From a phage: 64,000 nucleotides of DNA. Position 1 is the stretch's first letter, and the number at the start of each line of letters is the position of its first letter. Under the pieces are notes generated by a model. It did not search any database. It worked only from the letters and a program-made list of their open reading frames with translations, and was not told the DNA's origin. Both the position numbers and the translations under genes were made by a program. Below, one piece after another: positions 4,696 through 60,287 of the stretch. The stretch lies in sequence record PZ452608.1, one strand, 5' to 3'.

Positions 4696-5796
4696 TTACT
4701 CATAATCCCTAATAACGAGACCAACAGGGAACTGTAAAGACCCCTTACGAGTCATCTTCTGGAACTGAACCGTTAAAGGTTTCCCGATAAACTCATCAGG
4801 ATGCTCAGCAAGGTACTGTTTCTTCTCATGAGTAGTCTTCCATGAGACATCTACAAAGACGTTAGGAAGAGTCTCTACAACGAACTTACCATGACCACGT
4901 TTATCAGTCTTTACACCAGTCACTTTAAACTCTTCAGTGTGCATCTTCTTGTGCTTAATCAAGAAGTATGAACGGTGACAACACTCATAGAAGGAGTCTT
5001 CAGAGATTGAACGGTACATTGCACCTTCAAACTTAACTTCAACCCACTTATCATGAGCTTCATCAAATTCTTCCCAAGAGTTTACACGACGAGACTTAAC
5101 AGGGACAACTTTACAGCCATCTCTCAAGTCATTCAATGGTGAAGTCTCAATAATATCCCTACGTTCAGGCCACGTCTTAGTGCTATCACAGATGTCATAC
5201 CAGTAAAACTTAAGAAGATGTCTGTCTGGGTTGTCTTCATTTTTAATCATGGAGACAATATCTTCTAAGTCCCACCCATGAGCATAAACCTCCCCGTCAA
5301 ACTCATCAACGTCTGCATGGAGTCTTAACATAGTCATAATGTCAGGTGTTAGCTCAGTAGGTATTTTATAAACAGTATTCTCACGAGAATAAGCCGTGAA
5401 ACTAACTGAATCATCACCTCTTGAAATTCTACAACGGACACCATCAAGTTTTGGTTGAGCATCAGCAGGGAACTTCAGATACTTTGCATGGCTAACCTTT
5501 GCAGCATCATGAGCAAGCTGTACACCTACCTTCTCAGTATTCTGTGCAGACTCTTTTGTGTAAGCGTAACCTTTACGGTCTACTTGTTTCTTATACTTAG
5601 CAGAAACTTCAAAGAGAGCTTGCTGTTCAGCGTTACGCTCATTCTTTTTACCGATGTTTTTAGGTTCTGCTGTATACTCTTCAAACATCATCTTGCCATT
5701 TTCTTTACCGTAGGTTGTAATAACTTTGTCACCTACAGCAACACATGACCAGATGTTAAAAGAGCCATCTTTATTTTGTTTGTACAGTATTGTCAT
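4696..5796 (-). CDS. ATP-dependent DNA ligase
   Basis: Adenylation motif KLDGVRC (KxDGxR), FDGEV, EGAMYR and LIKHKK motifs; start placed at ATG preceded by GAGGAATAAA. Confidence 0.65.
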   Translation of the reverse strand: MTILYKQNKDGSFNIWSCVAVGDKVITTYGKENGKMMFEEYTAEPKNIGKKNERNAEQQALFEVSAKYKKQVDRKGYAYTKESAQNTEKVGVQLAHDAAKVSHAKYLKFPADAQPKLDGVRCRISRGDDSVSFTAYSRENTVYKIPTELTPDIMTMLRLHADVDEFDGEVYAHGWDLEDIVSMIKNEDNPDRHLLKFYWYDICDSTKTWPERRDIIETSPLNDLRDGCKVVPVKSRRVNSWEEFDEAHDKWVEVKFEGAMYRSISEDSFYECCHRSYFLIKHKKMHTEEFKVTGVKTDKRGHGKFVVETLPNVFVDVSWKTTHEKKQYLAEHPDEFIGKPLTVQFQKMTRKGSLQFPVGLVIRDYE

Positions 5797-55951: not shown

Positions 55952-56323
55952 ATGAAAAACAGAACAAACAAAGGCCAGTTTAAAAAAGGCCAATCTGGAA
56001 ACCCATCTGGAAGACCAAAAGGCTCTCGCAACAAAAGCTCACTTGTAAAAGCTCAACTGACCATTGATAATTCTGCTGAGTTTGCTGCAAAGTTGTTTGA
56101 AGCGATTGTTACAAGGGATGCTGCTAAGCTTGCAGAGTTCGGGTTAAACACAGACGATGTAACCATCAAGAGCATGATTGAAGTCGGTAAAACTATCATG
56201 ACCCACTCAGCAGGTGAGATGAAAGCAATTGCAGCAGACACTAAGAAGACTCCTGATAACGGCGGTCAGTCTCAGACAGATAACAAACCAACGTTCTCTG
56301 CTGTTGCAACCCTTAAAAAATAA
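55952..56323 (+). CDS. hypothetical protein with GNPSGRPKG motif
   Basis: 123 aa; N-terminal KGQSGNPSGRPKGSRN. Confidence 0.4.
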   Translation: MKNRTNKGQFKKGQSGNPSGRPKGSRNKSSLVKAQLTIDNSAEFAAKLFEAIVTRDAAKLAEFGLNTDDVTIKSMIEVGKTIMTHSAGEMKAIAADTKKTPDNGGQSQTDNKPTFSAVATLKK

Positions 56324-56404: not shown

Positions 56405-57820
56405 ATGAGCGAATTATTTAAACATGCGCACCTTCATGCAGGTCGAACTGAAAATGGTGCTGTAAACCATACTTCATCAATGTCTGCTCTTGTAGACTTT
56501 TACAAAGCTGCTGGTTCAAGCCGTAGCAATGTAGAAATCTTACCAGACCTGTTCTACAAAGCTTTGCGTGAGGATGTTGATGTTGCAGTTCGTATTTTAC
56601 TGCATATGCGAGATGTACGAGAAGGTATGGGTGAGCGTAAAGCCTTCAGAACTGTTTTACTTCAAGCGATTGAAGACAAAGTTTTAGAGTCTACGCAGGT
56701 TCTTCGCATTATGGATAAGATTGCAGAACTTGGTCGTTTTGATGACTTCAAAATCTTCGTAGGTACTCGTTTCGAGACAGATGCCTTCAAACACTTAGAA
56801 GCAGCATTACTAGACCCTGCAACAGCAGGTTTGGCGGCTAAGTGGTTACCACGAGTCAAACCACGTCATAAGCAGTTTGTAAAACGTTTCTGCAAGTTTG
56901 CCAACTTGAGTGAGAAAGAGTACCGCACACTGTTGTCTGCACTATCTGATACAGTTGAGCAAAAAATCTCTGCTAATGAGTTTGGTAAGATTGACTACAG
57001 TAAGATTCCTTCACTTGCTGCTGCACGTTACCAAAAACTGTTTAACCGTAAAGATGGAGAGCGTTACAAAGCTTACATCGAGTCCTTATCAAAAGGTGAG
57101 ACTAAGATTAACGCTGGTGCTGTTTACCCATACGATGTGATTAAATCTGTCAAGTATGGTAATGCAGATGTTGCTAATGAGCAGTGGAAAGCACTACCAA
57201 ACTGGATGGCAGAAGGTGAAAACATCTTGTGTATGTCTGATGTATCAAGTTCAATGTCTTGGGTGAATTTTGGCTCCATTACTGCTCTGGATATTGGTGT
57301 ATCACTTGCCTTGTATGTAGCAGAACGCAATACAGGTTGCTTTAAGAATGAGTTGATGGTTTATTCGACAAACCCTCACTTCATCGAACTGAGTGGTGAT
57401 TTACGAAACCGTCATCGTCAGGTGATGCGACACGTTGAATATGGCTCAACTAACTTACAAGCAGCTTTTGACCGCATTCTTGAAACAGGTAAAAGAAACA
57501 ACTTGACTCAGAAAGATATGCCAAGTAAGCTTATCATCTTCTCCGATATGGAGTTTAATCAGGTTGATGGAGCTAACGGTCGTACAAACTTTGAAGCAAT
57601 TCAGAGTAAGTACAAAAAAGCTGGATATGAGATGCCACAACTGGTATTCTGGTACTTAGCAAACCGTAATGGTACTTGCGAAGTATCTGTTAAGGATAAC
57701 GGTGTAGCAATGGTATCAGGGTTCTCTCCAGCCACTTTAAAAGCTCTGCTTGGTGGTGAGAAGTTTGACCCAATCAGTGTAATGCTCAAAGCAGTAATGA
57801 TTGACCGTTATATCTGGTAA
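56405..57820 (+). CDS. vWA (MIDAS) domain protein with N-terminal helical domain; possible Ro60/TROVE-like
   Basis: 471 aa; MIDAS-like DxSxS (CMSDVSSSMSW) and downstream IIFSDMEFN; long helical N-terminal region; TROVE assignment is inference only. Confidence 0.4.
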   Translation: MSELFKHAHLHAGRTENGAVNHTSSMSALVDFYKAAGSSRSNVEILPDLFYKALREDVDVAVRILLHMRDVREGMGERKAFRTVLLQAIEDKVLESTQVLRIMDKIAELGRFDDFKIFVGTRFETDAFKHLEAALLDPATAGLAAKWLPRVKPRHKQFVKRFCKFANLSEKEYRTLLSALSDTVEQKISANEFGKIDYSKIPSLAAARYQKLFNRKDGERYKAYIESLSKGETKINAGAVYPYDVIKSVKYGNADVANEQWKALPNWMAEGENILCMSDVSSSMSWVNFGSITALDIGVSLALYVAERNTGCFKNELMVYSTNPHFIELSGDLRNRHRQVMRHVEYGSTNLQAAFDRILETGKRNNLTQKDMPSKLIIFSDMEFNQVDGANGRTNFEAIQSKYKKAGYEMPQLVFWYLANRNGTCEVSVKDNGVAMVSGFSPATLKALLGGEKFDPISVMLKAVMIDRYIW

Positions 57821-57838: not shown

Positions 57839-57867
57839 TTGACAATGTGTTTAATACCCTTTAATAT
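57839..57867 (+). promoter_or_regulatory. sigma70-like promoter upstream of tRNA array
   Basis: TTGACA-17-TAATAT, overlapping AAGGGTA/TACCCTT inverted repeat. Confidence 0.5.
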
Positions 57868-57985
57868 GTTCTACATAGAAACGAAATGAGAGCTTTTCTA
57901 AGATGCTGAAAAATATTTTAAAAAAGTTCTTGACAACCACTAAAAAATAATGTTAAAGTGGTTACATAGAGTTTGAAAAGTTTAT

Positions 57986-58147: not shown

Positions 58148-58238
58148 GTTTTGACAGAAGACCAATTACAGCAAACTTAATCTACTCATCTGAAAGTTAA
58201 TCGGACAAAGAAGATATTTGGTCTGGTCATTAAGAATT

Positions 58239-58314: not shown

Positions 58315-58398
58315 AATTTACAGAAGACCGTTTACAGCAATATTTATTAAATTTTTAGCGGAAAAAATTGAAAGATACGGTCTGGTAATACTAAACAT

Positions 58399-58655: not shown

Positions 58656-58838
58656 ATTTTGATAGGGCTATTTAGCCCCTCCCTTAAAGGGTTCTTACGA
58701 GTATTCTTTAAAGGAGCAGAAGACCAAATTCAGCAAGTTACTTAAAATTTCAAGCCAATTTAATTTTGAAAAATTTAAAACTTGGTCTGGCTCAACAAAT
58801 TTACAGAAGACCGTTTACAGCAAAACTTAAACAATCTA

Positions 58839-58912
58839 TTTCTCCGGTAAAGAAAAGGCGAAGGTTCGATTCCTTCACTCGGCAGATGTCGAGTTGGTGT
58901 AATGGTAGCACT
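58839..58912 (+). other. circularly permuted or rearranged tRNA-like gene (Thr-type anticodon GGT)
   Basis: 58839-58884 encodes anticodon arm (TTTCT-CCGGTAA-AGAAA), T-arm (GAAGG-TTCGATT-CCTTC), acceptor 3' strand ACTCGGC and discriminator; after a 3-nt linker, 58888-58912 encodes complementary acceptor 5' strand GTCGAGT plus D-arm (GTGT-AATGGTA-GCAC). Confidence 0.4.
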
Positions 58913-58943
58913 TAAGATGATAAACAACGGTCTGGTAATTACC

Positions 58944-59073
58944 TTTGTAGATAAGTTATTAAGCTTACTTGTGAGTATGCGACCACAAAGGGTGAATGGG
59001 TAAATTCTAGATTTAAACCCAAAAAGGCACATCGCTACAGACCTTAAGCAAGTCTGGGTAGCTTATCTACAAA
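58944..59073 (+). other. structured element: 12-bp perfect inverted repeat enclosing about 106 nt
   Basis: TTTGTAGATAAG (58944-58955) and CTTATCTACAAA (59062-59073); internal hairpin GGGTAAAT..ATTTAAACCC. Confidence 0.4.
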
Positions 59074-59084
59074 GATAATTTAAT

Positions 59085-59566: not shown

Positions 59567-59648
59567 CGGGGCGTATCTCAGCGGTCTTCTAAACCGCCGT
59601 TAACCGAGTAAGTGGAGTATGCGGGTTCGAGTCCTGCCGCCTCGACCA
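59567..59648 (+). tRNA. atypical tRNA-like gene (possible anticodon TCT, Arg-type); no canonical D-arm
   Basis: Acceptor CGGGGCG/CGCCTCG, T-arm GCGGG-TTCGAGT-CCTGC, CCA; perfect stem-loop GCGGT-CTTCTAA-ACCGC only 7 nt after acceptor, plus 23-nt extra segment. Confidence 0.4.
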
Positions 59649-59882: not shown

Positions 59883-60287
59883 ATGAAACTTTGTAGAAAA
59901 TGTTCTCAAGAAAAGCCTTTAAGCTGCTTTCATAAAAGAGGTAATGGCTATCAGTCTGCTTGTAAAGATTGTAAAGCTAAGTACTCAGCAAAGAGATACA
60001 AAGAAGACCCTACTTATAAAGCAAAAAGAAAAGTTAGGGCAAAATATGACAAAAAGAGGAACAGAGAGTTCCTTAGTAGATATAAAAAGTTTTGCAAATG
60101 CAGAATATGTGGCGAATCTGAGCCAGTAGCTTTGGATTTTCATCACTTAGACCCTAAAGAGAAAGATTTTGCTCCAAGCAATCTTAAAACTTACTCTAGA
60201 GGCACTATTAAGCGTGAAGTCCGTAAGTGTGTTGTGCTTTGTTCAAACTGTCATAGGAAAGTTCATGCAGGACTGTTAAGTATTTAA
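59883..60287 (+). CDS. HNH homing endonuclease
   Basis: 134 aa with CRKC, CKDC, CRIC cysteine pairs, HH motif (LDFHHLDP) and CSNCHRKVH; embedded in tRNA array. Confidence 0.6.
   Translation: MKLCRKCSQEKPLSCFHKRGNGYQSACKDCKAKYSAKRYKEDPTYKAKRKVRAKYDKKRNREFLSRYKKFCKCRICGESEPVALDFHHLDPKEKDFAPSNLKTYSRGTIKREVRKCVVLCSNCHRKVHAGLLSI

What the first reader, a model, noticed from the sequence alone, without database searches (positions are those of the whole stretch)
58839..58912. Apparent circularly permuted (or rearranged) tRNA gene embedded in a spacer repeat
Seen in sequence: the 3' two-thirds of a tRNA comes first (anticodon arm TTTCT-CCGGTAA-AGAAA with anticodon GGT, 4-nt variable loop, T-arm GAAGG-TTCGATT-CCTTC, acceptor 3' strand ACTCGGC, discriminator A). 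After a 3-nt linker comes the 5' third (acceptor 5' strand GTCGAGT, complementary to the 3' strand with one G-U, then D-arm GTGT-AATGGTA-GCAC). The unit is inserted inside one copy of the CAGAAGACCGTTTACAGCAA...GGTCTGG spacer element. Permuted tRNA genes are known from a few algae and archaea, not from phages; the alternative is a rearranged pseudogene.
Basis: seen in the sequence. Interest (0 to 1): 0.6.

Follow-up and report, generated by a model that had tools for sequence, protein, structure and literature searches.

The report
Phage Y-like RNA mimicking tRNA
The "scrambled tRNA" is real, but it is most likely the tRNA-shaped core of a small non-coding RNA that partners with a Ro60-like protein encoded 1 kb upstream; this RNA-protein pair is widespread in phages, is not annotated in the related phage records I opened, and I found no description of it in the papers searched.

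Summary
At 58839-58912 the order is anticodon-like hairpin, T arm, 3' acceptor strand, 4-nt loop, 5' acceptor strand, D arm; un-permuted, ARAGORN calls it tRNA-Thr(GGT).

The window is a Felixounavirus (wV8-like). Across three Ounavirinae genera the T and D arms are invariant, the "acceptor" stem covaries and is closed by a loop (AGAT, UACG or GCCAAACA), and the "anticodon" is not conserved. That is the V-T-AS-D architecture of bacterial Y RNAs (YrlA).

The ORF at 56405-57820, 984 nt upstream on the same strand, folds as Ro60 (TROVE ring plus vWA). The unit lies inside a terminal stem followed by UUACAGCAA, and three shorter copies of that module sit between neighbouring tRNAs.

The same modules flank homologues of this protein in phages of Mycobacterium, Listeria, Staphylococcus, Campylobacter, Aeromonas and Yersinia. 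A covariance model built without any Ounavirinae sequence finds the window element at 73 bits (E 3e-13). In 80 protein-anchored loci all 55 hits lie on the gene's strand, with a median distance of 214 nt in the 74 non-Felixounavirus loci.

It is therefore neither an algal-type permuted tRNA gene nor a pseudogene. It is a new variant of a known kind. RNA-protein binding and biological function are inferred, not shown.

The parts
56405..57820 (+). Gene for a 471-aa Ro60-like protein (TROVE-like helical ring plus vWA domain with a DxSxS MIDAS motif). It is the proposed protein partner of the RNAs.
   Evidence: ORF listed. Pfam DUF2828 + DUF7788. AlphaFold model pLDDT 88.7. The ten best PDB matches are all Ro60/TROVE: 2i91, 1yvr, 2nvo, phage phiLo 9l5y/9kop, E about 1e-8, TM 0.47-0.67 over the full length. 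Homologues in mycobacteriophages are annotated 'Ro-like RNA binding protein'.
57839..57959 (+). Two sigma-70-like promoter matches (57839-57867 and 57930-57959) between the Ro60-like gene and the first tRNA. They are candidate start points for the tRNA/Y-like RNA array transcript.
   Evidence: Consensus scan, 10 of 12 matches each. This is a pattern match only.
58155..58228 (+). Small stem-CAGCAA RNA module 1, lying between tRNA-Glu and tRNA-Met. Terminal stem AGACCAA 58159-58165 / TTGGTCT 58218-58224; UUACAGCAA follows the 5' strand.
   Evidence: Repeat family. Stem and motif scan. Model R2, built without Ounavirinae sequences, scores it 27.0 bits, E 0.0015.
58321..58387 (+). Small stem-CAGCAA RNA module 2, lying between tRNA-Met and tRNA-Asn. 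Terminal stem AGACCGT 58325-58331 / ACGGTCT 58377-58383.
   Evidence: R2 32.5 bits, E 7.5e-5. R1 27.2 bits, matched with the tRNA-like core deleted. Weak Rfam Dicty_Class_I_RNA match, 20.5 bits.
58717..58792 (+). Small stem-CAGCAA RNA module 3. Terminal stem AGACCAA 58721-58727 / TTGGTCT 58782-58788.
   Evidence: R2 27.3 bits, E 0.0013.
58804..58937 (+). The full tRNA-like Y-like RNA (module 4). It consists of the terminal stem, a single-stranded UUACAGCAA, and a tRNA-mimic core.
   Evidence: R1 (no Ounavirinae sequences in the model) scores it 73.3 bits, E 3.1e-13, end to end; the next non-module hits are at or below 26.5 bits. The MFE fold gives the same structure.
58808..58815 (+). 5' strand of the terminal stem (AGACCGTT). 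It pairs with 58926-58933.
   Evidence: The helix covaries across the family, 99.4% of cells paired, with double changes in all 7 pairs.
58815..58823 (+). UUACAGCAA motif. CAGCAA (58818-58823) is invariant in the family. It is the proposed protein-binding site.
   Evidence: CAGCAA is invariant in all 22 sequences of A3 and all 33 of A5. It is predicted unpaired.
58839..58855 (+). Anticodon-arm-like hairpin, the 'V' stem-loop of YrlA nomenclature: TTTCT-CCGGTAA-AGAAA.
   Evidence: The loop is not conserved among orthologues. A comparable hairpin was found in only about a third of family members.
58860..58876 (+). T-arm mimic: GAAGG-TTCGATT-CCTTC.
   Evidence: Invariant across Ounavirinae. GGTTC.A.TCC is invariant across the family and the stem covaries.
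58877..58894 (+). Closed acceptor-stem mimic (AS hairpin): ACTCGGC-AGAT-GTCGAGT.
   Evidence: Compensatory changes occur among orthologues, for example T-A / A-T / C-G at one pair. All 7 pairs covary across the family. Stem length is 4-10 bp and loops are often GNRA or UNCG.
58897..58911 (+). D-arm mimic (GTGT-AATGGTA-GCAC), preceded by U8-like T and G at 58895-58896.
   Evidence: The D stem and A14, G18-G19 and A21 are invariant across Ounavirinae; one D-loop position varies. U8, G10, A14, a loop G and A21 are invariant or nearly invariant across the family.
58926..58933 (+). 3' strand of the terminal stem (AACGGTCT), followed by GG.

Best explanation
The unit is the tRNA-mimicking core of a roughly 130-nt non-coding RNA (58804-58937) of the Y RNA / YrlA kind. 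It is not a gene for a decoding tRNA.

Shown:
- The RNA is a covarying structure. A terminal stem joins its two ends. It is followed by an unpaired, invariant CAGCAA motif, then a variable hairpin, a T arm, an acceptor-like stem closed by a loop, and a D arm.
- The tRNA elbow and core nucleotides are conserved. The 'anticodon' and the acceptor end are not.
- It belongs to a family of RNAs that lie next to, and on the same strand as, genes for a Ro60-fold protein (Pfam DUF2828+DUF7788) in phages of at least four bacterial phyla.
- Three shorter siblings with the same terminal stem and motif, but no tRNA-like core, lie between neighbouring tRNAs in the window.

Inferred:
- The RNAs are transcribed with the tRNA array and released when the flanking tRNAs are processed.
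- The Ro60-like ring (56405-57820) binds the terminal stem plus UUACAGCAA, as Ro60 binds the conserved 5' strand of the Y RNA stem.
- The L-shaped tRNA mimic projects as an effector module. It would recruit or decoy a factor that recognises the tRNA elbow, such as an exoribonuclease like PNPase, tRNA-processing or repair enzymes, or a tRNA-targeting defence nuclease.
- The closed acceptor end would keep the RNA out of aminoacylation.
- The biological role is probably RNA quality control or counter-defence during infection. The likely orthologous protein of Felixounavirus Bas63 (gp130) was reported to counter the Ppl defence system.
For: 1. Orthologues in Suspvirus and Mooglevirus keep the T and D arms invariant. 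The AS stem changes by compensatory pairs, and its loop changes from AGAT to UACG to GCCAAACA.

2. In a 22-sequence family alignment, 23 pairs are 97.6% paired, against 63% in shuffles and 36-44% when slid. The covariation score is 0.95, against 0.27 in shuffles and 0.11-0.17 when slid. Twenty-one pairs carry double changes.

3. Model R1, built only from non-Ounavirinae sequences, hits 58804-58937 at 73.3 bits, E 3e-13. tRNA dimers score at most 26.5 bits.

4. The upstream ORF has the Ro60 fold: the top 10 PDB matches are all Ro60/TROVE. It ends 984 nt before the RNA, on the same strand.

5. Mycobacteriophage LeBron carries the same three-part arrangement directly after its homologous gene. 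That arrangement is a small module, a tRNA-like module, then a small module, each with a stem plus CAGCAA. Rfam's YrlA model matches the LeBron element at 39.8 bits, E 2.4e-5. It matches other family members at 28-50 bits, with E values from 0.056 down to 2.6e-8.

6. In 80 loci chosen only by the protein, all 55 R1 hits are on the gene's strand. Hits occur in 39 of the 74 non-Felixounavirus loci, at a median distance of 214 nt.

7. Model R2, built from small modules of other phages, finds exactly the three spacer copies as the top three hits in the window.

8. Literature. YrlA has V, T, AS and D stem-loops, with T and D nearly invariant and AS conserved only as a structure (PMC4201824). Bas63 gp130 is Ro60-like, sits directly upstream of the tRNAs and counters Ppl; its authors only guessed that some 'tRNAs' might be Y RNAs (PMC11482910). 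In the P100-like Listeria phage CKA15, highly abundant RNAs map within 2 kb upstream of the Rsr-like gene (PMC12282133).
Against: - No direct evidence of transcription, of the RNA's ends, or of protein binding exists for this phage.
- Rfam's YrlA model does not match the window element at E<=10, and family members stay below the gathering score of 69.
- The motif GNCGAAN0-1G, proposed to mediate Ro60 binding in YrlA, is absent. CAGCAA takes its place, so binding is by analogy only.
- The protein is a structural homologue of Ro60, not a sequence-detectable one. It has no PDB sequence hit and about 13-16% identity in the structural alignments.
- In wV8 the AS stem is 7 bp with an A after it. [quoted passage not shown]
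- Model R1 was seeded from loci found with a CAGCAA...GGTTCGATTCC pattern, so family boundaries are biased towards that pattern.
Confidence: 0.75

Rival explanations
1. A genuine circularly permuted tRNA-Thr(GGU) gene. The transcript would be circularised, or cut and religated, at the terminal stem and then opened in the acceptor loop to give a decoding tRNA.
For: All four tRNA arms are present, and the un-permuted sequence passes ARAGORN. The closest relatives CHB7 and Sf13 have a canonical CU-GGU-AA loop. wV8 has a 7-bp acceptor stem followed by a discriminator-like A. The array otherwise carries only tRNA-Thr(UGU). Some phages with this protein family encode RtcB or RNA ligases nearby.
Against: - The anticodon loop is not conserved among orthologues, and wV8 itself has C33.
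- The acceptor stem is closed by a UACG tetraloop in relatives, and by GNRA or UNCG loops elsewhere. Its length is 4-10 bp across the family, which is incompatible with a fixed distance between anticodon and CCA end.
- No CCA is encoded, whereas 25 of the 26 real tRNAs here encode it.
- The terminal stem is a plain 8-bp helix, not a bulge-helix-bulge junction.
- From established knowledge, E. coli and these phages lack a tRNA-splicing endonuclease.
- Three sibling modules have the same stem and motif but no tRNA part.
Confidence: 0.04
2. A decaying remnant: a rearranged tRNA pseudogene, or the T arm of one tRNA followed by the D arm of the next (a tRNA-dimer artefact).
For: The element sits in a dense array of 26 tRNA genes. 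Chen et al. 2014 warn that tRNA dimers mimic the T-AS-D order. My own descriptor scan did produce such false positives at the tRNA-Gly/tRNA-Thr junction in four related Ounavirinae loci, and similar ones at other tRNA junctions.
Against: - The two acceptor strands are complementary to each other, and the pairing is kept by double changes in other genera.
- The T and D arms are invariant over genera whose aligned element regions are only 73-90% identical to the window.
- The same unit occurs in 253 phage records, and next to the homologous gene in unrelated phages.
- True tRNA dimers score at most 26.5 bits with R1, against 73.3 for this element.
Confidence: 0.03
3. A functional tRNA-like RNA that works without the Ro60-like protein. 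It could be a decoy for host anticodon nucleases or other tRNA-targeting defences. It could equally be an RNase P/RNase Z 'punctuation' element that helps process the array. The stem-CAGCAA modules would then serve processing or stability rather than protein binding.
For: The element is embedded among tRNAs, and the small modules occupy tRNA spacers. One family member encloses an ordinary colinear tRNA inside the stem-CAGCAA frame (L109:4668-4789). Phage tRNA arrays are known, from general knowledge, to counter tRNA-targeting defences.
Against: The modules track the protein gene, not tRNAs. In LeBron and in many protein-anchored loci they abut the gene, at a median of 214 nt and always on the same strand. 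In LeBron no tRNA gene is annotated in the 11-kb locus. An invariant single-stranded hexamer next to a helix is typical of a protein-binding site.
Confidence: 0.15

Closest known systems
YrlA (Y RNA-like A; Rfam RF02553) of Salmonella Typhimurium, Mycobacterium smegmatis and some phages
   Same: - The ends are joined in a terminal helix.
- The internal order is V, T, AS, D.
- The T and D loops carry the conserved tRNA nucleotides.
- The AS stem is conserved only as a structure.
- The RNA is encoded within a few kb of a Ro60-fold protein gene, on the same strand.
- Rfam's model matches several members of the phage family at E values from 0.056 down to 2.6e-8.
   Different: - The partner protein is DUF2828+DUF7788, not a sequence-recognisable TROVE/Rsr.
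- The motif proposed to bind Ro60, GNCGAAN0-1G, is replaced by UUACAGCAA.
- The window element is not detected by RF02553, and relatives stay below its gathering score.
- The hairpin before the T arm often looks like a full anticodon arm.
- The RNA comes with two or more minimal siblings sharing the stem and motif, interleaved with real tRNA genes.
Circularly permuted tRNA genes (Cyanidioschyzon merolae and other algae, some archaea)
   Same: The 3' part of the cloverleaf is encoded upstream of the 5' part on one strand, with a short linker between the acceptor strands.
   Different: In those genes the ends form a bulge-helix-bulge cut by the splicing endonuclease. A circular intermediate is opened to give a decoding tRNA with a 7-bp acceptor stem and a conserved anticodon. 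Here there is no BHB, the acceptor length varies, structural tetraloops close the stem, and the anticodon is not conserved.
Metazoan Y RNAs / Deinococcus Yrn1 with Ro60 (Rsr), and Yrl1/Yrl2 of Thermus phage phiLo
   Same: A small RNA whose terminal stem carries a conserved protein-binding motif, plus a variable effector module. It is encoded beside the Ro60 gene in bacteria and phages. Several Y RNAs occur per genome.
   Different: Those RNAs use the GGUCCGA/CGAA motif and canonical TROVE proteins. Yrn1 has a different order of tRNA-like arms.
Dictyostelium Class I RNAs (Rfam RF01414)
   Same: This applies to the small modules. They are about 55-65 nt, with a short terminal stem that covaries, starting (A)AG and ending CUG(U). 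A conserved motif, CCUUACAGCAA in Class I RNAs and UUACAGCAA here, sits directly after the 5' strand of the stem, and the interior is variable and A/U-rich. RF01414 gives sub-threshold matches (15-31 bits) at 17 modules in 11 sequences (the window and 10 phage loci), and nowhere else in those sequences.
   Different: Class I RNAs are eukaryotic, with their own promoter element. Their known binder is the RRM protein Rnp1A. All scores are below the gathering score of 41.5. I could not establish whether dictyostelids encode a DUF2828 protein.
tmRNA (including two-piece, permuted tmRNA)
   Same: A bacterial or phage RNA with a tRNA-like domain built from non-contiguous parts.
   Different: tmRNA has an open, aminoacylatable acceptor end and a reading frame for the tag. 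Only chance-level Rfam tmRNA matches occur nearby.

Membership tests
Circularly permuted tRNA gene (algal/archaeal type) | The 3' part of the tRNA is encoded upstream of the 5' part on the same strand | tested here: met
   Sequence reading. The un-permuted sequence is called tRNA-Thr(ggt) by ARAGORN.
Circularly permuted tRNA gene (algal/archaeal type) | A bulge-helix-bulge motif at the junction of the transcript ends, for the splicing endonuclease | tested here: not met
   The ends form a continuous 8-bp helix, AGACCGTT/AACGGTCT, followed by unpaired UA-CAGCAA. There is no 3-4-3 BHB.
Circularly permuted tRNA gene (algal/archaeal type) | The product is a decoding tRNA, with a conserved anticodon, a 7-bp acceptor stem and a CCA end (encoded or added) | tested here: not met
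   The anticodon loop differs among orthologues and wV8 has C33. AS stems are 4-10 bp and closed by GNRA or UNCG loops. No CCA is encoded, against 25 of 26 real tRNAs.
Circularly permuted tRNA gene (algal/archaeal type) | A circular RNA intermediate and a mature joined tRNA | not testable with these tools
   Needs circular RT-PCR or tRNA-seq of infected cells.
YrlA / bacterial Y RNA (Rfam RF02553; Chen et al. 2014) | A terminal helix joining the 5' and 3' ends, enclosing V, T, AS and D stem-loops in that order | tested here: met
   MFE and consensus folds. Definition taken from PMC4201824.
YrlA / bacterial Y RNA (Rfam RF02553; Chen et al. 2014) | T and D stem-loops nearly invariant with tRNA-like nucleotides; AS conserved in structure only | tested here: met
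   GGTTC.A.TCC is invariant. U8, G10, A14, a loop G and A21 are invariant or nearly so. All 7 AS pairs show double changes.
YrlA / bacterial Y RNA (Rfam RF02553; Chen et al. 2014) | Encoded within about 4 kb of a Ro60 orthologue, on the same strand | tested here: met
   The Ro60-fold ORF 56405-57820 ends 984 nt upstream on the + strand. The family-wide association is shown. Caveat: the protein is a structural homologue (DUF2828), not a recognised TROVE orthologue.
YrlA / bacterial Y RNA (Rfam RF02553; Chen et al. 2014) | GNCGAAN0-1G motif near the 5' end (proposed Ro60 contact) | tested here: not met
   The 5' region reads AGACCGUUUACAGCAA. The invariant motif is CAGCAA.
YrlA / bacterial Y RNA (Rfam RF02553; Chen et al. 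2014) | Score at or above the Rfam gathering threshold (69 bits) | tested here: not met
   There is no RF02553 match to the element at E<=10. Relatives score 28-50 bits.
YrlA / bacterial Y RNA (Rfam RF02553; Chen et al. 2014) | Physically bound by the Ro60 protein; carries tRNA-type modifications (psi55, D) | not testable with these tools
   Needs RIP/EMSA and modification mapping.
DUF2828-associated stem-CAGCAA RNAs (family defined here; models R1 and R2) | A covarying terminal stem plus an invariant unpaired CAGCAA 0-3 nt after its 5' strand, with or without a tRNA-like core, next to a DUF2828 gene on the same strand | tested here: met
   R1 73.3 bits for 58804-58937. R2 27-32.5 bits for the three small copies, which are the top three hits in the window. 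Both models were built without Ounavirinae sequences.
Dictyostelium Class I RNA (Rfam RF01414) | A short terminal stem plus the 11-nt motif CCUUACAGCAA after its 5' strand; AAG start and CUGU end; about 60 nt | tested here: inconclusive
   The small modules share UUACAGCAA, the stem, (A)AG...CUG(G/U) and the size. RF01414 matches are 14.9-20.5 bits in the window and up to 30.7 bits in relatives, all below the gathering score of 41.5. Homology versus convergence was not resolved.
tRNA pseudogene / tRNA-dimer artefact | No selective constraint: no covariation, not conserved beyond close relatives | tested here: not met
   Strong covariation and conservation across genera and phyla.

The most novel reading that the evidence does not exclude
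The stem-UUACAGCAA RNAs, including the three 'spacer repeats' and the frame around the tRNA mimic, may define a ribonucleoprotein family built on the DUF2828 branch of Ro60-like proteins, and that family may reach beyond phages. The Class I RNAs of Dictyostelium were reported as unique to dictyostelids and have no known function. They share the terminal stem, the AAG start, the CUG(U) end and 9 of the 11 motif positions. They would then be members or descendants of this family, that is, Y-RNA-like partners of a Ro-like protein. A second, less likely novel reading is that the wV8-type element is cleaved by RNase P in its acceptor loop and CCA-tailed, as M. smegmatis YrlA is. That would give a two-piece, chargeable tRNA-like molecule held on the Ro-like ring.
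Probability: 0.25. Interest if true: 0.85.

Novelty: new variant of a known kind. Interest (0 to 1): 0.68.

Why it matters
- It replaces an exotic reading (a permuted tRNA gene in a phage) with a testable one: a tRNA-mimicking Y-like RNA.
- It identifies concrete RNA candidates for a protein that two recent studies could only speculate about. These are Bas63 gp130, a Ro60-like counter-defence factor against Ppl, and the Rsr-like protein of P100-like Listeria phages, which sits near very abundant unexplained RNAs.
- It defines a conserved candidate binding motif (stem plus UUACAGCAA), different from the Ro60 motif proposed for known Y RNAs. It also provides two covariance models that find these RNAs next to DUF2828 genes in phages of Proteobacteria, Firmicutes, Actinobacteria and Campylobacterota.
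- None of the 15 related phage records I opened, six of them Ounavirinae, annotates these RNAs. Some annotate hypothetical ORFs over them.
- If the link to Dictyostelium Class I RNAs is real, it would give a first mechanistic handle on an abundant eukaryotic RNA class of unknown function.

Tried and rejected
- Rfam scans of the window, at gathering-independent E<=10, both for the 6.6-kb region and for the 391-nt region alone. They gave no YrlA or any other family for the element, only a partial tRNA match.
- PDB sequence search with the protein: nothing. The fold search was needed.
- AFDB50 fold search, intended to look for Dictyostelium or plant homologues: the library was not available.
- The supplements of Chen et al. 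2014 (the list of 22 phages with YrlA) are not held. The 2020 Annual Review and Avesson et al. 2011 (Class I RNA-binding proteins) are not held either. I therefore could not check whether cluster L mycobacteriophages were already listed, or whether a vWA/DUF2828 protein was among the Class I binders.
- Literature searches for DUF2828, UCP015417 and PF11443 returned only plant and tardigrade papers.
- My strict T-AS-D descriptor scan gave false positives at real tRNA-tRNA junctions, such as Gly-Thr, with loops containing CCA. These were rejected by inspection and by the R1 scores.
- The IMG/VR pattern CAGCAAN{25,55}GGTTCGATTCC was noisy: many hits are ordinary tRNAs. For that reason the association test was redone on protein-anchored loci.
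- A CTTAA/TTAAG inner helix predicted in wV8 is not conserved in the relatives and was not used.
Full report
OBSERVATION
- hairpin TTTCT-CCGGTAA-AGAAA (58839-58855)
- AGGC
- T arm GAAGG-TTCGATT-CCTTC (58860-58876)
- ACTCGGC (58877-58883)
- a four-base loop A-GAT
- GTCGAGT (58888-58894)
- TG
- D arm GTGT-AATGGTA-GCAC (58897-58911)

If the 5' part is placed in front of the 3' part, ARAGORN calls a tRNA-Thr(ggt), whichever short linker is used. On the native sequence ARAGORN calls nothing there, although it finds 26 tRNAs around it. Rfam's tRNA model gives only a partial 22-bit match. Two details weaken the tRNA reading from the start. Position 33 is C rather than U. No CCA is encoded, whereas 25 of the 26 real tRNA genes of the array end in CCA.

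CONTEXT
The window is a Felixounavirus; the 441-nt region is 100% identical to Escherichia phage wV8. A 156-nt query centred on the element (58790-58945) matches 253 phage records, 246 of them over at least 80% of its length. None of the six Ounavirinae records I opened annotates anything at the unit itself except, in some, a short hypothetical ORF.

The unit lies between tRNA-Asp and tRNA-Lys. It sits inside a terminal stem (AGACCGTT 58808-58815 / AACGGTCT 58926-58933), and UUACAGCAA follows the 5' strand of that stem. The same stem and motif, without the tRNA-like insert, occur at 58159-58224, 58325-58383 and 58721-58788. Two of those copies fill the spacers tRNA-Glu/tRNA-Met and tRNA-Met/tRNA-Asn. 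The minimum-energy fold of 58796-58945 gives the terminal stem enclosing four hairpins.

ORTHOLOGUES
I aligned the window with Suspvirus CHB7 and Mooglevirus Sf13, ESh22, HP1 and Moogle.
- The T arm, the D stem and the key D-loop nucleotides are invariant.
- The acceptor-like stem changes by compensatory pairs. One pair is T-A, A-T or C-G; another is G-C or T-A.
- The acceptor loop changes from AGAT to UACG (a UNCG tetraloop on a 6-bp stem) to GCCAAACA.
- The 'anticodon' hairpin is the least conserved part: CCGGTAA, CTGGTAA, CTATAAA, and a different small hairpin in Moogle/HP1.

This is not the pattern of a decoding tRNA, and not that of a decaying pseudogene. It is the pattern described for YrlA Y RNAs. 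Those have four stem-loops V, T, AS and D inside a terminal helix. T and D are nearly invariant and tRNA-like. AS is conserved only as a structure and corresponds to a closed acceptor stem. V is poorly conserved (Chen et al. 2014, PMC4201824).

THE PROTEIN
The ORF 56405-57820 (471 aa, + strand) ends 984 nt upstream of the RNA, just before the tRNA array.
- Pfam sees only DUF2828 and DUF7788.
- A PDB sequence search finds nothing.
- An AlphaFold model from a 43-sequence alignment (pLDDT 88.7, pTM 0.88) matches Ro60/TROVE over its whole length. The ten best PDB matches are Xenopus Ro60, human Ro60 complexes, Deinococcus Rsr and the Ro60 of Thermus phage phiLo, with E about 1e-8 and TM 0.47-0.67. 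Isolated vWA domains come next.
- Homologues occur in 710 phage records. Those of cluster L mycobacteriophages are annotated 'Ro-like RNA binding protein'.

OTHER LINEAGES
Mycobacteriophage LeBron's protein is about 31% identical. The 360-nt gap after its gene holds three tandem units, each a terminal stem followed by CAGCAA. The middle unit contains a T arm, a closed 7-bp hairpin and a D arm. Rfam's YrlA model matches that unit end to end at 39.8 bits, E 2.4e-5.

Tandem units of 50-70 nt with a 6-10-bp terminal stem, 0-3 nt, then CAGCAA also lie beside the homologous gene, on its strand, in phages of Campylobacter, Aeromonas (eight copies), Listeria, Staphylococcus and Yersinia.

A pattern scan of IMG/VR recovered many further full elements. 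Rfam YrlA matches seven of them at 28-50 bits, with E values from 0.056 down to 2.6e-8 and always below the gathering score of 69.

STRUCTURE AND MEMBERSHIP TESTS
In a 22-sequence alignment of full elements, CAGCAA and GGTTC.A.TCC are invariant, and U8, G10, A14, a D-loop G and A21 are invariant or nearly so. RNAalifold recovers the terminal stem, T arm, AS and D arm, and 21 of 23 pairs show double changes.

| Measure | Observed | Column shuffles | Slid by 1-3 columns |
|---|---|---|---|
| Cells paired | 97.6% | 63% | 36-44% |
| Covariation score | 0.95 | 0.27 | 0.11-0.17 |

Two leave-one-clade-out models were built without any Ounavirinae sequence.
- R1 (full elements) finds 58804-58937 at 73.3 bits, E 3e-13, end to end. 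The second hit is the small module 58321-58387. tRNA dimers reach at most 26.5 bits.
- R2 (33 small modules of other phages). Its stem is 90% paired against 61% when shuffled. It returns the three small spacer copies as the top three hits on both strands of the window (32.5, 27.3 and 27.0 bits). The next hits have E >= 0.1.

ASSOCIATION TEST
In 80 IMG/VR loci chosen only because they encode a relative of the protein, R1 gave 55 hits at E <= 0.01.
- All 55 lie on the gene's strand.
- 39 of the 74 non-Felixounavirus loci have a hit.
- The median distance to the gene is 214 nt, and 36 of 49 hits are within 500 nt.
- 13 loci carry the full tRNA-like form.

The RNAs therefore track the gene, not tRNA arrays as such. 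LeBron, for example, has no tRNA annotated in the 11-kb locus.

WHY NOT A REAL PERMUTED tRNA
- Across the family the acceptor-like stem is 4-10 bp long and is often closed by GNRA (GTAA, GAAA, GCAA) or UNCG (TTCG, TACG) tetraloops. These are hallmarks of a structural hairpin and are incompatible with a fixed acceptor-anticodon geometry.
- An anticodon-arm-like hairpin is present in only about a third of members, and its 'anticodon' varies even between orthologues.
- There is no BHB junction, no encoded CCA, and, from general knowledge, no splicing endonuclease in the host or phage.
- What is conserved is the tRNA elbow and core.

I cannot exclude that the wV8 version is nicked by RNase P, since it has a 7-bp stem followed by an A, and this happens to M. 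smegmatis YrlA. That feature is not conserved in the relatives.

MECHANISM (INFERRED)
- The array is probably transcribed from promoter-like sites at 57839-57959, and the RNAs are released as the flanking tRNAs are processed.
- The Ro60-like ring binds the terminal stem plus the single-stranded UUACAGCAA.
- The tRNA mimic serves as the effector module. It would recruit or decoy a factor that recognises the tRNA elbow.
- The small modules would be minimal partners, analogous to YrlB.

Support from the literature is indirect.
- In Felixounavirus Bas63, gp130 is Ro60-like, sits directly upstream of the tRNAs and counters the Ppl defence. Its authors only suggested that some annotated tRNAs might be Y RNAs (PMC11482910). 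That gp130 is the orthologue of the window ORF is inferred from genus and synteny; I did not check it by sequence.
- In the P100-like Listeria phage CKA15, three very highly transcribed regions lie within 2 kb upstream of the Rsr-like gene (PMC12282133). In the related phage List-36 I find three stem-CAGCAA modules directly upstream of that gene.
- Canonical phage Ro60 with CGAA-motif Y-like RNAs is known (PMC12135203).
- RNA-repair genes (RtcB, RNA ligases) lie near the gene in Listeria and Aeromonas phages. This recalls the bacterial rsr-yrlA-rtcBA operon.

NOVELTY
Y RNAs with a tRNA-like domain are known, so this is not a new kind of thing. The following I did not find described in the papers I could search:
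- the partner protein family (DUF2828)
- the different conserved motif
- the sibling minimal RNAs interleaved with tRNAs
- the identification of the actual RNA in Felixounavirus

SIDE OBSERVATION
The small modules resemble Dictyostelium Class I RNAs. Those have a roughly 6-bp terminal stem, an AAG start, a CUGU end and the motif CCUUACAGCAA after the 5' strand, are about 60 nt long, and are reported as unique to dictyostelids (PMC7919456). Rfam's Class I model gave sub-threshold matches of 15-31 bits at 17 modules in five searches, and nowhere else in those sequences. A/U-rich composition may inflate these scores. I could not test whether dictyostelids have a DUF2828 protein.

LIMITS
- No expression or binding data exist for this phage.
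- R1's seed set came from a pattern search that requires CAGCAA and GGTTCGATTCC.
- E-values from the shortened calibration are rough.
- The protein-RNA pairing rests on genomic association and on analogy with Ro60-Y RNA.

Noticed in passing
window 58155-58228, 58321-58387, 58717-58792; L013 (Aeromonas phage LAh_6) 533-4958; L201:7692-7749; L162:4727-4788: The small stem-UUACAGCAA modules resemble Dictyostelium Class I RNAs: terminal stem, AAG start, CUG(U) end, CCUUACAGCAA motif, about 60 nt. Rfam RF01414 gives sub-threshold hits (15-31 bits) at 17 such modules and nowhere else in the searched loci. Whether this is homology or convergence is unresolved, and the presence of a DUF2828 protein in dictyostelids could not be checked.
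   Followed up: partly
window 58937-59080: A roughly 145-nt region between the Y-like RNA and tRNA-Lys is closed by a 22-bp helix (58937-58958 / 59059-59080). The helix is conserved in Suspvirus and Mooglevirus with a few compensatory changes. It contains a hairpin whose loop reads UUAAGCAA/UUUAGCAA. No Rfam family matches. It is probably another structured RNA of unknown role.
   Followed up: partly
L109:4668-4789 (IMG/VR contig): One stem-CAGCAA module encloses an ordinary colinear tRNA (Rfam tRNA 67.5 bits at 4696-4768) instead of a permuted mimic. The frame can evidently carry tRNA-like cargo in either topology.
   Followed up: partly
window 59567-59645: A tRNA missed by ARAGORN (Rfam tRNA 31.7 bits, just above the gathering score). 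A tRNA-Arg(TCT) is annotated at the corresponding place in the array in VpaE1, CHB7, Sf13 and Moogle; I did not align the sequences.
   Followed up: partly
window 59883-60287: A 134-aa ORF with weak HNH-endonuclease matches, below the Pfam cut-offs, sits inside the tRNA array. It may be a homing endonuclease.
   Followed up: no
L014 (Listeria phage List-36) 3426-3977 and 7810-11455; L013 (Aeromonas phage LAh_6) 10070-10993: A ROOL RNA (91.5 bits, just under the gathering score) lies about 1 kb upstream of the DUF2828 gene in List-36. RtcB, an RNA ligase and a tRNA amidotransferase lie downstream. LAh_6 has an Rnl2 nearby. This is an RNA-repair neighbourhood like the bacterial rsr-rtcBA operon.
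   Followed up: no
window 58766-58915 (+) and 58775-59032 (-): Mechanical ORFs of 49 and 85 aa overlap the RNA. Several related phage records annotate 'hypothetical protein' here. These are most likely mis-annotations over a non-coding RNA.
   Followed up: no
window 55952-56323: A 123-aa DUF5681 protein is encoded immediately upstream of the Ro60-like gene on the same strand, and an ORF of the same length lies just upstream of the homologous gene in Moogle, HP1 and ESh22. Its role is unknown.
   Followed up: no
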